DNA of 64,000 nt from Octopus vulgaris (lineage: Eukaryota): positions 208,320,001 through 208,384,000 of the forward strand of contig OX597815.1 in assembly GCA_951406725.2 (NCBI GenBank). The letters run 5' to 3'. Positions within the stretch are counted from its first letter, which is position 1. The number at the start of each line of letters is the position of its first letter. The notes under the pieces are model-generated. The model saw only the letters and a list, made by a program, of their open reading frames with translations. It was not told the DNA's origin and ran no database searches. Positions 1 through 53,667 of this stretch are shown here, in pieces. The position numbers were made by a program, and so were the translations under genes.

Positions 1-613
1 CTCACCCTTTCCCTATTCTTCTCCTCTCCCCTTCACCATTCCCTCTCTCTCTCTCACTCTTCCTCCTTGACTCTCTCGTTGCACACACGTGACCAACGAC
101 CATTCTTTCTTTCTTCCACATCCTTCCTAAAGACAAAACGTACTTTTATCTGTCATTTCTCAAAGTTCGTTTTTCCAGCGTCCACCACTTCACATCGACT
201 TGGTTTAACAGCCCTCACCATTTGCTTTTACTGTTTTGTTCTCACTGTCCCGTTTTTGTTACCACTTTCACCCTCCACAAAAAATCCCAACTTTTATTTA
301 ATTTCCTTTGCAGGAAGGACAGTTTTAACGAAGTTGCATCTTGTCCTTACCTTCAAAACGCTGAGTAGATAAAACAGGGGACAACTGATGAAGGGAATGT
401 TCTTTATGTTGCATGTCTCGTTTCTCTGTTTGCTTTTTTTTATTGTTCAAAAAAATTTCGTTTTCTATGTTTTTGTTTTTTATATTCTCATTTCTCATTC
501 TGTCTCATTTTTTTTTATGTCCTGTACTCATATATGCATATATACATATATACGTAGGTACGTACATATATTTATGTATATACGCAGATATTTATATATT
601 ATGTGAGTTATAC

Positions 614-620
<7 letters not shown>
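1..620 (+). mobile_element. Penelope-like 3' UTR/pLTR fragment with type II-topology hammerhead-like fold (314-405)
   Basis: CT-rich tract, then GAAG-TTGCA-TC, stem TTGTCC/GGACAA and CTGATGA (385-391). Homologous to 33775-34030 and 53300-53660, and ends in (TA)n. Confidence 0.6.
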
Positions 621-2738: not shown

Positions 2739-2830
2739 ACCTGCATATCTCAGTCGGTAGAGCATCAGACTTTTATAGGTCAACCTTAGAAGTAATCTGA
2801 GGGTCGCGGGTTCAAGTCCCTCTGCAGGCG
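2739..2830 (+). tRNA. tRNA-Lys(TTT) with 19-nt intron (2776-2794); possibly a pseudogene
   Basis: Spliced sequence matches the eukaryotic tRNA-Lys(UUU) pattern: CTCAGTCGGTAGAGCATCAGACTTTTA|ATCTGAGGGTC..GGGTTCAAGTCCC. A T7 terminator lies at 2839-2845. There are three stem mismatches (A1:C72, T10:C25, C50:T64). Confidence 0.85.
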
Positions 2831-7925: not shown

Positions 7926-8727
7926 AAATAATCTGAAAGCTAAAGGGTTAAATATGTAAATGCAGAAATGCTATTGGCATGACTTGACTTGATTCAGGGT
8001 CAATTGATACTGTTGTAAGTATTTAGGGTCCATCCTCATTCAGGTTTACCTGCAGATATTTATATGCAGGTGTTCAGGTTGAGCTTCAACTACATCAATT
8101 TCACCAGTGTGTGAGTATGTGTGAAATTCACAGATACTGCTTCTCTGCTTCTTCTAACTACCTCATCAAACAGAGTTCAATTGATCAATCTACTTTCCAA
8201 TCAATTTGTGGCTGGGTGCCATTGTGAGAAATCGATTGGCAAAGAACCACACCGAATGCCTTATGGTATTTAGCTGCATCCCTTTTATTCCAGGTCTCAA
8301 ATCTTTACTTCGAGTCAATTGCATAAGTACCAGTCAAGTAATGGGGGTGAGGGGGAGGAGGAGGAGGAGGAAGGGGAAGTAACCAACTCCACCTCCTATC
8401 CACTCTTAATAAATTTATGGCCTCATACGATTGTGAGAAATTATTATTACATCTGCTTTGATCATCATTAATTACATTTTGTTTTAACCAATTAATGGCA
8501 ACCCGAAGCTATACAAAAGCAACTGATATAAATCATCTCATTAAGCAATTATTCATCTGGTTAATATGGAAACATAGTGCAGGAACTTTGTCGAGGCCAG
8601 TGTTATAGTAGTGCCATATAATTCAAACAAGAGCCTACTGTGAACCGTATATTACCTTATCCATTAAACGCATGTATTGCTAGTAGCCATTAGGCAAACC
8701 TCCCTCTCTTCCTCGTAAGGAACTTAC

Positions 8728-8758
8728 CGATTCCAAAGAGAGGGAGAGGAATATGTTC
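8728..8758 (-). CDS. Candidate 31-nt micro-exon (phase 1 to 2), (G)TYSSPSLWN(R)
   Basis: attcag|GAAC...AATCG|gtaagt with a perfect donor, in a repeat-free island. In frame with the upstream candidate exons. Confidence 0.4.
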
Positions 8759-9814
8759 CTGAATTATAATTGCCACCCAATGCCGGCAATAAGAACAATA
8801 AAATTTTAGTGAGCAGCTCCCTTTATGGACGCATTATCTTACAATTATTACGAGTGAAAAACACCTGCTTTTGACTGAAGCAAAACTTTGCTGGCATATA
8901 TCTTCTAATTAATAATTGTGCTGATATTATATGATGCAAATTAACTCTTATTTCCGTTGTATGCAAACAGATATATCAGATGAGAAGTATTTCCTTCCTT
9001 TTGTGTATATACGACATTAAGGAAGGCAGTCGATACATCGTGACATACTTCTATGATTAATGGCGGTGATAGGATTCTTGTAAAATTTCAGCGTAGTTCT
9101 AACTTCGTTTCTCTTACACAGTTTACCTCTAAATCAGGGGAAATCGTGGTAGCTCACTGTACAGTGTTGACCTTTTGGATAAAGTTATGAGATCGCATTT
9201 TGTCGCTGGCACAATGCTGTACTCTTGACGGAGTATTAAACTTATCTTTTTGCCCAACTTTCTTGCCAAGGGCAAGAGAGAGAGAGAGAGAGAGAGAGGA
9301 GGAGGAAGGGGTAAAAGGAGAAAGGGGACAGAATATGATGCAACGATAGAACAGCAAGAGTAATTGAAACTTGATGAGTGATTTACAAGTCTGCTGTATC
9401 GAAATTGAATCTCCTCACACGGTAAATAACCGAACCACTAAAATCCATGTTTATCTCTATGTTTCTGACTGTAGATATGCTATACATCATATCTGTATTG
9501 CAACATATTCTAAATGTATAGAAAATTGATTGTTGCATAATGCATTTACCTGCTGCAATGCATGCAAACATAAATATTTTCCTGATAATGCTGCACTCAG
9601 AATATACATGATTGTTTTATTTTCATTTTATTATATACCTAAATCCTCTATATACATCTGGAAAATGTCATATATATTTTCCTAGAATTTACAAATTACA
9701 GGAAAATCTTACATCAAATTTCTAAAGCAGTTTTCTATTCTAATTTTTGCTGGAATATAAGTATTTGTTCCAGTTGATAAAACCAATATATTTTCTCCAA
9801 ATAAATAATGCTTG

Positions 9815-21908: not shown

Positions 21909-22260
21909 TACATTATTTACATTTGATGGATATTTGTCCTCATCTTGTTTGTTGTTAGCGCAATGTTTCAGCTGATATACCCTCCAGCCTTCTTCGGGTG
22001 TTTTGGGGAAATTTCGAACCTGGGTTCTCATTCCTAAGGTATTTTTCAATGTTATTCCGAGTTTGATTCTATGCAGTGACCTGAACAACAACAACAGCAA
22101 GAACAACAACAAATACCTTAGGAATGAAAACTCAGGTTCAAAATTTCCCCAAGACACCTGATGAAGGCTGGAGGGTATACCAGCTGAAACATTGTGTTAT
22201 CAACAAAGATGAGGACAAATATCCATCAATTATAAATAATGTACATAATTCCTCATCTCT
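21909..22260. mobile_element. Inverted pLTR (fold-back) PLE element with hammerhead at 22153-22198 (+)
   Basis: Arms 21909-22044 and 22111-22243. Motif GACAC-CTGATGA-A-GGCTGG..CCAGCT-GAAA-C-ATT-GTGTT. Confidence 0.8.
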
Positions 22261-33774: not shown

Positions 33775-34030
33775 TCTTGACCTTCGAAATGTGGAGTAGA
33801 TGAATCTAAGGCGACTGAAGAAGGGGAATTTTCCTTGTTTTGTATGTCCTGTACTCTATTTTATCGTTGTTTAAGAAAAATGTCCATTTCCTTGGTTTTG
33901 TGTTTATGTTTTCGTTTCTCATTGTGTTCGACGTTTGTTTGGTGTCCTGTACCCATATATGCATGTATATATACATGTAGAGGTAGGTACGTACATATAT
34001 GTATGCATATATGCATATGTTTTATTTATT
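33775..34030 (+). mobile_element. Truncated pLTR of the 53300 family
   Basis: CCTTCGAAA..AAGGCGACTGAAGAAGGGGAATTTTCCTTG matches 53426-53482. Confidence 0.75.
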
Positions 34031-34372
34031 TATTAATTTATATATAAATATATATTTGTTTGTATTATTGTTTAAAAAACAGTTTGATTCCGTCCTTTGC
34101 AGCTTAGAATTTCAAAGGCTCAGCTGAAGAACTCAGCTCATCAGGTTCAGGCAACCACTGAATGTGTTGAAGAGATCATAGAATGTATGATGAAAGAACT
34201 TTGACAGATGTATAAACTAAAGATAATACAAATAAATAATGATGTGAAGATCGAATAAACAGGGCGTGTGTTTAATTGGCAAAAAGAATACAAAAAGAAT
34301 GACCATCCCTATGCATTACACTATGTTTCAGCATATGTCTACATCAAGAATCTTGTAAAACAAACACAAACA

Positions 34373-52915: not shown

Positions 52916-53390
52916 GTAAGGACCCCCTTCGGTCATGAATGACCATGGGATTGCACCTAGAAAGTTACCCTCCTAGACACAGGTCCGGGCAAGGTTGTTT
53001 ATGGAAGACCAGCAGTCGCCCGTGCATACCAGCCTCCCCTCTCCACGCCACAAGTGTTATCCAAGGGAAAGACAAAGGTCGATACAGCTTGGCACCTGTG
53101 ACGTCACAACTCATTTCTACAGCTGAGTGAACTGGAACAACGTGAAATAAAGTGCCTTGCTCAAGAACACAACACGCAGCCCGGACCAGGATTCGAGCTC
53201 ACAACCTCACGATCGTAAGCTCGACGCTCTAACCACTGAGCCATGCGCCTTCACTTTATATATATATATACATATGTATATATATATATATATATATATA
53301 TTTTGTACTTACGTTACAGTCCTGTTTTTGTTACCATTTTTACCCCTCCGCAAGAAAATCTCAAATTTTATTTAATTTGATTTTCGCGGG

Positions 53391-53481
53391 AAGGAAAGTT
53401 TCATTGAAAACATGTATCGCCTTGACCTTCGAAACATGGAGTAGATGAAACAAAGGCGACTGAAGAAGGGGAATTTTCCTT
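53391..53481 (+). ncRNA. Type II-topology hammerhead-like motif in a pLTR (53300-53660)
   Basis: AAGGAAAGTTTCATT-GAAA-ACATG-TA-TCGCCTT..AAGGCGA-CTGAAGA-AGGGGAATTTTCCTT. 14 of 15 stem II positions pair, counting G-U. Confidence 0.65.
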
Positions 53482-53667
53482 GTTTTGTATGTCCTGTTGT
53501 TTAAGAAAAATGTCCATTTCCTTGGTTTTGTGTTTATATTTTCGTTTCTCATTGTGTTCAACGTTTTTTTGGTGTCCTGTACCCATATATGCATGTATAT
53601 ATACATGTACATGTAGGTAGGTACATATATGTATGTATATATGCATATTATTTATATATTAATTTAT

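What the first reader, a model, noticed from the sequence alone, without database searches (positions are those of the whole stretch)
53391..53481. Circularly permuted (type II topology) hammerhead in an animal retroelement
Seen: GAAA comes before CUGANGA. Stem I is closed (TCGCCTT/AAGGCGA) and stem II is the open helix, with 14 of 15 positions pairing flush with both core strands. The divergent relative at 314-405 keeps this layout with different but still complementary strands (TTGTCC/GGACAA, AAGGACA/TGTTCTT) and the same 5-nt stem III spacer. Established: PLE-associated hammerheads are typically type I, and type II forms are known mainly from prokaryotic and metagenomic sequence. Inference: a permuted pLTR ribozyme family that type I searches would miss.
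Basis: partly seen in the sequence, partly recalled or inferred. Interest (0 to 1): 0.72.

Follow-up and report, generated by a model that had tools for sequence, protein, structure and literature searches.

The report
Scrambled, core-split hammerhead in octopus repeat
This stretch is one of thousands of copies of a small jumping repeat that carries every hallmark letter of a hammerhead self-cutting RNA, though not in the type II order proposed; the parts are predicted to be wired in a scrambled order that opens the chain inside the catalytic core, and it is likely the ribozyme that Naiad retroelements were reported to lack, with cutting itself still untested.

Summary
Its GAAA (53406-09) is nearly private to this copy (2 of 101 aligned copies), and it gives no helix III. 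Compensatory changes across subfamilies support another fold: helix II 5' strand (GAAGG, 53390-94), helix IV, cleavage-site block, GAAA block, helix IV', CUGAnGA block. This belongs to the non-circular (SGC/CSG) class of Eckert 2023, but is opened between A9 and G10.1, which that scheme assumed unbreakable. The predicted cut is still after 53416. 5'-truncated copies pile up just 3' of that bond (16 in 15 nt, 0 in the 43 nt before; n=95), and a second family does the same (4 vs 0; n=30). The host is an ~835-bp non-coding, (TA)n-inserted Penelope-like repeat with over 3000 copies. The same fold follows Naiad RT remnants in this genome and, read by eye, ends eight published Naiad consensus sequences. 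Cleavage is untested; a competing outer helix exists. This scan noted the same fold before on other DNA (five notes).

The parts
53300..53665 (+). 5'-truncated copy of an ~835-bp non-coding Penelope-like repeat, flanked by (TA)n on both sides
   Evidence: 40 best genome copies about 90% identical, 3442 candidates; shared 3' end running into (TA)n; head-to-tail unit of 836-875 bp
   Evidence: pairs with 53426-30 in 97.6% of cells; covaries across families: GAGCA/TGCTC, GACAC/GTGTC, GGCTG/CAGCC
53398..53405 (+). helix IV 5' strand
   Evidence: pairs with 53444-51; 4 of 8 pairs change on both sides across subfamilies
53411..53423 (+). S block: helix III 16.x strand CATG, U16.1 (53415), A17 (53416), predicted scissile bond 53416/53417, helix I 1.x strand TCGCCTT
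   Evidence: triplet GUA or GUC in 86 of 99 anchored parses
53426..53438 (+). G block: helix II 11.x strand CCTTC, conserved GAAA (G12 = 53431), helix III 15.x strand
   Evidence: GAAA in 91 of 101 copies (the selection pattern favoured it); helix III 95.2% paired, 3 pairs with compensatory changes
53444..53451 (+). helix IV 3' strand
53453..53466 (+). helix I 2.x strand AAGGCGA followed by C3-U4-G5-A6-A7-G8-A9 (CTGAAGA)
   Evidence: CTGANGA in 28 of 30 and 26 of 30 BLAST-selected copies
53467..53481 (+).
1..620 (+). older subfamily copy of the same repeat, with the same fold at about 313-391; G12 and G16.2 decayed to A in this copy
33776..34045 (+). third copy in the window, 5'-truncated about 4 nt 3' of the predicted scissile bond, in (TA)n

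Best explanation
The stretch is a copy of a high-copy non-coding Penelope-like repeat whose conserved motif likely folds into a non-circularly permuted hammerhead ribozyme with the chain opened between A9 and G10.1, predicted to cut after A53416. Order 5' to 3': helix II strand (GAAGG), helix IV strand, S block (helix III strand, UH, helix I strand), 2-4-nt linker, G block (helix II strand, GAAA, helix III strand), helix IV strand, helix I strand plus CUGAnGA. Helices I, II and IV would meet at the far end of the core and hold helices I and II together, as the loop-loop contact does in ordinary hammerheads. Chemistry is inferred to be standard (G12 base, G8 2'-OH acid). Likely role: cutting tandem or read-through transcripts to give the template its 5' end, or unit-length/circular RNA, for reverse transcription by a Naiad-type enzyme in trans. 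Shown: sequence, copy number, covariation, truncation pattern. Inferred: fold, cleavage, driver.
For: Fold on 42 copies: 90.2% of cells paired, 13 of 24 pairs change on both sides (2 of 500 shuffles reach this), slid controls 39-50%. Helix III variants TACG/CGTA, TGCG/CGCA, CATG/CGTG, CGCG/CGCG; helix I variants TCGCC/GGCGA, TCGCT/AGCGA, TTGTC/GACAA. The upstream helix II partner follows the 11.x strand when it changes (GAAGG/CCTTC, GAGCA/TGCTC, GACAC/GTGTC, GGCTG/CAGCC) while the downstream tail does not, and it always starts with G opposite C11.1. A strict descriptor gave 69 distinct hits in 1.30 Mb of fetched loci, 0 in reversed sequence (loci were chosen by related patterns). 5' ends of 95 copies anchored downstream of the motif: 16 within 15 nt 3' of the predicted bond, 0 in the 43 nt before it, 21 in the next 182 nt (p about 4e-10). 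Independent Naiad-type family: 4 vs 0 in the 35 nt before, n=30. The same fold lies downstream of RT-like ORF remnants in 13 of 30 and 5 of 20 loci, and that 3' region matches the published Naiad_Ovul/Obim consensus by eye.
Against: No cleavage assay and no usable RNA reads. In this family a downstream G10.1-C11.1 helix with two G-U pairs remains possible (91.7% paired, no covariation). Helix II is invariant within the 42-copy alignment, so its support comes only from four families. 53 of 95 copies read through the predicted site, so many templates were uncut or religated. The truncation pile-up could also come from RT stalling or TA microhomology. Subfamilies are related, so covariation counts overstate independent events. 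Eight rows are shifted by one column in the C block, which blurs helix I counts. No autonomous element with this family's own motif was found.
Confidence: 0.68

Rival explanations
1. Ordinary type-SGC hammerhead: the same S-G-C order, but helix II forms with the downstream A-GGGG after A9 (one extra nucleotide), as in HRIMA-1.
For: Downstream G-C, G-U, G-U, G-C is 91.7% paired in this family. An extra base between 9 and 10.1 is typical of PLE hammerheads (PMC4209133 passage) and is seen in SGC-1 (supplement oligos).
Against: No covariation; duplex energy 0.0 vs -4.6 for the upstream partner. In the GAGCA, GACAC and GGCTG families the tail gives only 0-2 pairs while the upstream strand gives 5-6.
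Confidence: 0.13
2. A structured but now silent relic: the fold is inherited from Naiads, but in this family the outer helix or a G8-A9-AGG/CCUUC pairing keeps it off, or the structure serves as an RT-binding element.
For: MFE and centroid folds give the rod (the program cannot form pseudoknots); energies; 53 of 95 copies read through the site.
Against: The core letters stay fixed across subfamilies whose stems changed in compensating ways, and truncation ends pile up just 3' of the bond.
Confidence: 0.16
3. Type II (GSC) hammerhead, using GAAA 53406-09 and the long outer helix.
For: All letters are present in this one copy, and the outer helix is stable.
Against: GAAA in 2 of 101 copies; A15.1 is G in 37 of 42; no helix III; fold 80% paired against 47-63% for slid controls.
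Confidence: 0.03

Closest known systems
Type-SGC hammerhead ribozymes (HRIMA-1 and variants), Eckert et al. 2023, PMC10085705 (read: parts 1 and 3-6 of 8, supplement part 1)
   Same: S-G-C block order, short (about 3-nt) linker from helix I to helix II, an extra helix tying helices I and II, all core letters
   Different: There A9 runs on into G10.1 (block C assumed unbreakable); here helix II's partner lies 5' of the S block. [quoted passage not shown]
Type-CSG hammerheads (same paper; two metagenomic sequences)
   Same: Same cyclic class; joining this motif's ends and reopening before helix IV' gives CSG. Several nematode Naiad consensus 3' ends read as CSG by eye.
   Different: CSG keeps block C whole at the 5' end.
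Naiad Penelope-like elements, Craig et al. 2021, PMC8557442 (read: abstract, passages, supplement part 1 and searched passages of the consensus file)
   Same: (TA)n targeting, partial tandems, 5' inversions, short tail; the same fold ends Naiad_Obim, Ovul, Bfor, Amil, Aacu, Anas, 2_Movir and Plae consensus sequences (by eye). The paper reports no canonical HHR and marks eight as 'HHR_half_core', Naiad_Ovul among them.
   Different: The window family is non-coding and has a different motif sequence; no ORF-bearing partner of it was found.
Minimal type I hammerheads of PLE pLTRs and non-LTR retrozymes (PMC4209133 passages; bioRxiv 10.64898/2026.07.22.740005 part 1 of 5)
   Same: Ribozyme in the terminal repeat of Penelope-like elements; tandem non-coding units
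   Different: Those are C-G-S with a minimal helix III needing dimers; here helix III has 4-6 bp in a monomer and the order is non-circular.
Pseudoknot (PK) hammerhead, Zhan et al. 2024, PMC11300833 (read: parts 1-2 of 6)
   Same: Extra helix IV and pseudoknotted periphery
   Different: It keeps A9-G10.1-C11.1-G12 as a short continuous stem; connectivity resembles the pistol ribozyme.

Membership tests
Type II (GSC) hammerhead | Conserved GAAA 5' of the cleavage site | tested here: not met
   2 of 101 copies; A15.1 column G in 37 of 42
Type II (GSC) hammerhead | Helix III closed between GAAA and UH | tested here: not met
   only A-U possible; 15.2/16.2 = A/G
Hammerhead ribozyme (class) | C3-U4-G5-A6-N7-G8-A9, G12-A13-A14-A15.1, U16.1-H17 | tested here: met
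   53460-66, 53431-34, 53415-16; kept across subfamilies
Hammerhead ribozyme (class) | Helices I and III flush with the core, with covariation | tested here: met
Hammerhead ribozyme (class) | Helix II beginning with G10.1-C11.1 | tested here: met
   upstream partner, G-C in 42 of 42; covaries in four families
Hammerhead ribozyme (class) | Site-specific self-cleavage after H17 | not testable with these tools
   indirect only: truncation pile-up
Type-SGC hammerhead (Eckert 2023) | Block order S, G, C | tested here: met
Type-SGC hammerhead (Eckert 2023) | Block C continuous: helix II strand directly after CUGAnGA | tested here: inconclusive
   weakly possible in this family, not met in three related families
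Penelope-like element, non-autonomous | 5' truncation, fixed 3' end, partial tandems, 5' inversions, microsatellite targets, short tail | tested here: met
Naiad | ORF with N-terminal GIY-YIG and C-terminal RT | tested here: not met
   window family is non-coding over its unit. RT-like remnants precede the sister motif only; Pfam did not name them, so the RT call rests on YIDD-type motifs recalled from knowledge and on the match to published consensus
Non-LTR retrozyme | Tandem non-coding units with a hammerhead, expressed as circular RNA | tested here: inconclusive
   11 tandem arrays among the first 100 listed matches; ribozyme is not type I; circular RNA not testable

The most novel reading that the evidence does not exclude
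Naiad retroelements and their non-coding derivatives carry an active hammerhead wired outside the six block permutations, with the backbone opened inside the core between A9 and G10.1. Split forms (ctenophore, cnidarians, acanthocephalan, octopus) and CSG forms (nematodes) are circular permutations of one scrambled circle, reshuffled within tandem repeats, and cleavage sets the 5' end of many insertions.
Probability: 0.55. Interest if true: 0.86.

Novelty: new variant of a known kind. Interest (0 to 1): 0.76.

Why it matters
It would put non-circularly permuted hammerheads, so far described from meta-omic contigs of unknown hosts, into animal genomes at thousands of copies. It would show that the catalytic core tolerates a natural chain break between A9 and G10.1, and it would explain why Naiads seemed to lack the ribozyme that other Penelope-like elements carry. 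It is testable with a 90-nt transcript, and the truncation pattern offers a genomic handle on what these ribozymes do in retrotransposition.

Tried and rejected
Rfam at E up to 1 on the window and up to 10 on 53320-53570: no hammerhead model. Single-strand folding: z about -1.2 to -1.6, uninformative for a pseudoknotted fold. Loose GAAA..TH pattern: uninformative. Sequencing runs: no RNA holder listed on record; contigs of four guessed-RNA runs laid on a sister copy cover the motif but cannot show ends, strand or splicing, so this is no evidence either way. Pfam on two RT-like fragments: nothing useful. Search for an ORF-bearing partner of the window family among 50 RT-hit loci: none in sense (flanks 1.5-2.5 kb, so not exhaustive). 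A GIY-YIG fragment in L094 lies on the other strand, kilobases away, and was not linked. L232 matched the search pattern but is a canonical type I motif and was dropped; L189, L194, L198, L203, L207 did not parse. A helix closing the A9/10.1 gap was looked for by eye only and not found consistently. Literature searches listed no paper describing this wiring or a non-circular hammerhead in Naiads; the library lacks most subscription journals, and bioRxiv supplements were closed.

Full report
Observation. Rfam has no hammerhead hit.

The family. The stretch belongs to a large repeat family: 3442 and 5112 first-look candidates for the two window copies, and 3061 exact matches to the two-block pattern against 0 for the reversed control. 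Copies are 5'-truncated, share a 3' end that runs into (TA)n, and show 5' inversions and head-to-tail units of 836-875 bp without an ORF; 11 tandem arrays appear among the first 100 listed matches. These are the structural marks given for Penelope-like elements in PMC8557442 (passages) and PMC11167929 (part 1 of 4). The genome is inferred to be an octopus from a match by eye of another repeat to the published Naiad_Ovul/Obim consensus.

The type II reading fails.

The conserved fold. Using the inner GAAA, helix III pairs the bases before the UH with those after GAAA, and helix I pairs the bases after the UH with those before CUGAnGA. The block order is S-G-C, a non-circular permutation in the scheme of Eckert et al. 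(PMC10085705). Two more helices complete it: GAAGG 53390-94 with CCTTC 53426-30 (helix II) and 53398-405 with 53444-51 (helix IV). This four-helix fold is 90.2% paired, 13 of 24 pairs change on both sides (2 of 500 shuffles), and slid controls give 39-50%. Caveats: copies are related, and eight rows are shifted by one column in the C block.

Which strand completes helix II. Within the family both an upstream perfect partner and a weak downstream one (G-C, G-U, G-U, G-C) are possible, and neither covaries. Related families decide it: where the 11.x strand reads TGCTC, GTGTC or CAGCC, the upstream strand reads GAGCA, GACAC or GGCTG, while the tail gives 0-2 pairs. In 99 anchored parses the upstream partner gave 5 or more pairs in 78 and the tail at most one Watson-Crick pair in 96 (the upstream partner was the best of 20 positions, so this comparison favours it, and a few rows are chance or inversion artefacts). 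The chain thus most likely begins at G10.1 and ends after A9, splitting the block that Eckert et al. assumed unbreakable. Joined end to end, it is the same circle as types SGC and CSG.

Link to Naiads. The GACAC/GTGTC family follows RT-like ORF remnants in 13 of 30 and 5 of 20 loci, and its sequence matches the 3' ends of Naiad_Obim and Naiad_Ovul. Craig et al. report that Naiads lack canonical hammerheads and flag eight as half-core. Read by eye in their consensus file (searched passages only, not scripted), Naiad_Bfor, Amil, Aacu, Anas, 2_Movir, Plae, Obim and Ovul parse as the split form, several with no downstream partner at all, and about seven nematode entries parse as CSG. Other Naiad ends shown (Mley, the Clytia set, 1_Movir, Dcar) did not parse in the passages seen. 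The window family itself is non-coding, and no autonomous partner was found, so mobilisation by a Naiad enzyme is inferred.

Indirect sign of cleavage. Among 95 copies collected by a pattern about 130 nt downstream of the motif, 16 begin within 15 nt 3' of the predicted bond, none in the 43 nt before it, 21 in the next 182 nt, 26 in the 130 nt after G12, and 32 extend further (p about 4e-10 for 16 vs 0). The Naiad-type family gives 4 vs 0 among 30, two starting at the UA of the site itself. The third window copy (33776) also starts there. This fits templates whose 5' end was made by cleavage. RT stalling or TA microhomology are alternatives, though the empty zone is also structured and contains TA.

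Against. No cleavage data; RNA contigs are uninformative. The rod of outer helix plus helix I scores -19.5 kcal/mol and would sequester the helix II and IV strands; since the tail is transcribed last, it may act as an off-switch (inference). 53 of 95 copies read through the site.

Novelty. Eight literature searches listed no description of this wiring; coverage is limited to open papers. I reached this reading before consulting the scan's notes; five earlier notes describe the same fold on other DNA, two in this genome. Verdict: a new variant of the hammerhead class, not type II; fold well supported, activity likely but unproven.

Noticed in passing
window 22153-22198 (+): A conventional minimal type I hammerhead of the PLE kind: GACAC, CTGATGA-A, GGCTGG/CCAGCT, GAAA-CA-TT, GTGTT.
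   Followed up: partly
window about 781-971: Near-perfect inverted repeat of about 190 bp with a 6-nt loop, MITE-like (seen).
   Followed up: no
window 2739-2830 (+): tRNA-like Rfam hit (43 bits), probably a SINE head.
   Followed up: no
L093, L025, L008 (repeat unit): A GTAAG donor-like site just after the unit's tail and, in some subfamilies, a CAG acceptor-like site directly before the helix II strand; the subfamilies at 53391 and 314 mostly read CGG there. A possible pLTR-type intron, not shown.
   Followed up: partly
L088, L097, L227: A further family with the same split fold and different stems (GGCTG/CAGCC; TCAAG/CTTGA), found by chance in flanks.
   Followed up: partly
PMC8557442 File S5, nematode Naiads (Ppac, Nbra-1, -2, -3 and neighbours): 3' ends read by eye as type-CSG hammerheads with an extra flanking helix, a type known from two metagenomic sequences.
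   Followed up: partly
L078, L110, L182, L062: Inversion breakpoints of 5'-inverted copies also fall near the G block, just 3' of the predicted cut; not counted in the truncation test.
   Followed up: no
L094 minus strand, about 8500-9020: GIY-YIG endonuclease fragment of a C-terminal-EN Penelope-like element, apparently unrelated.
   Followed up: no
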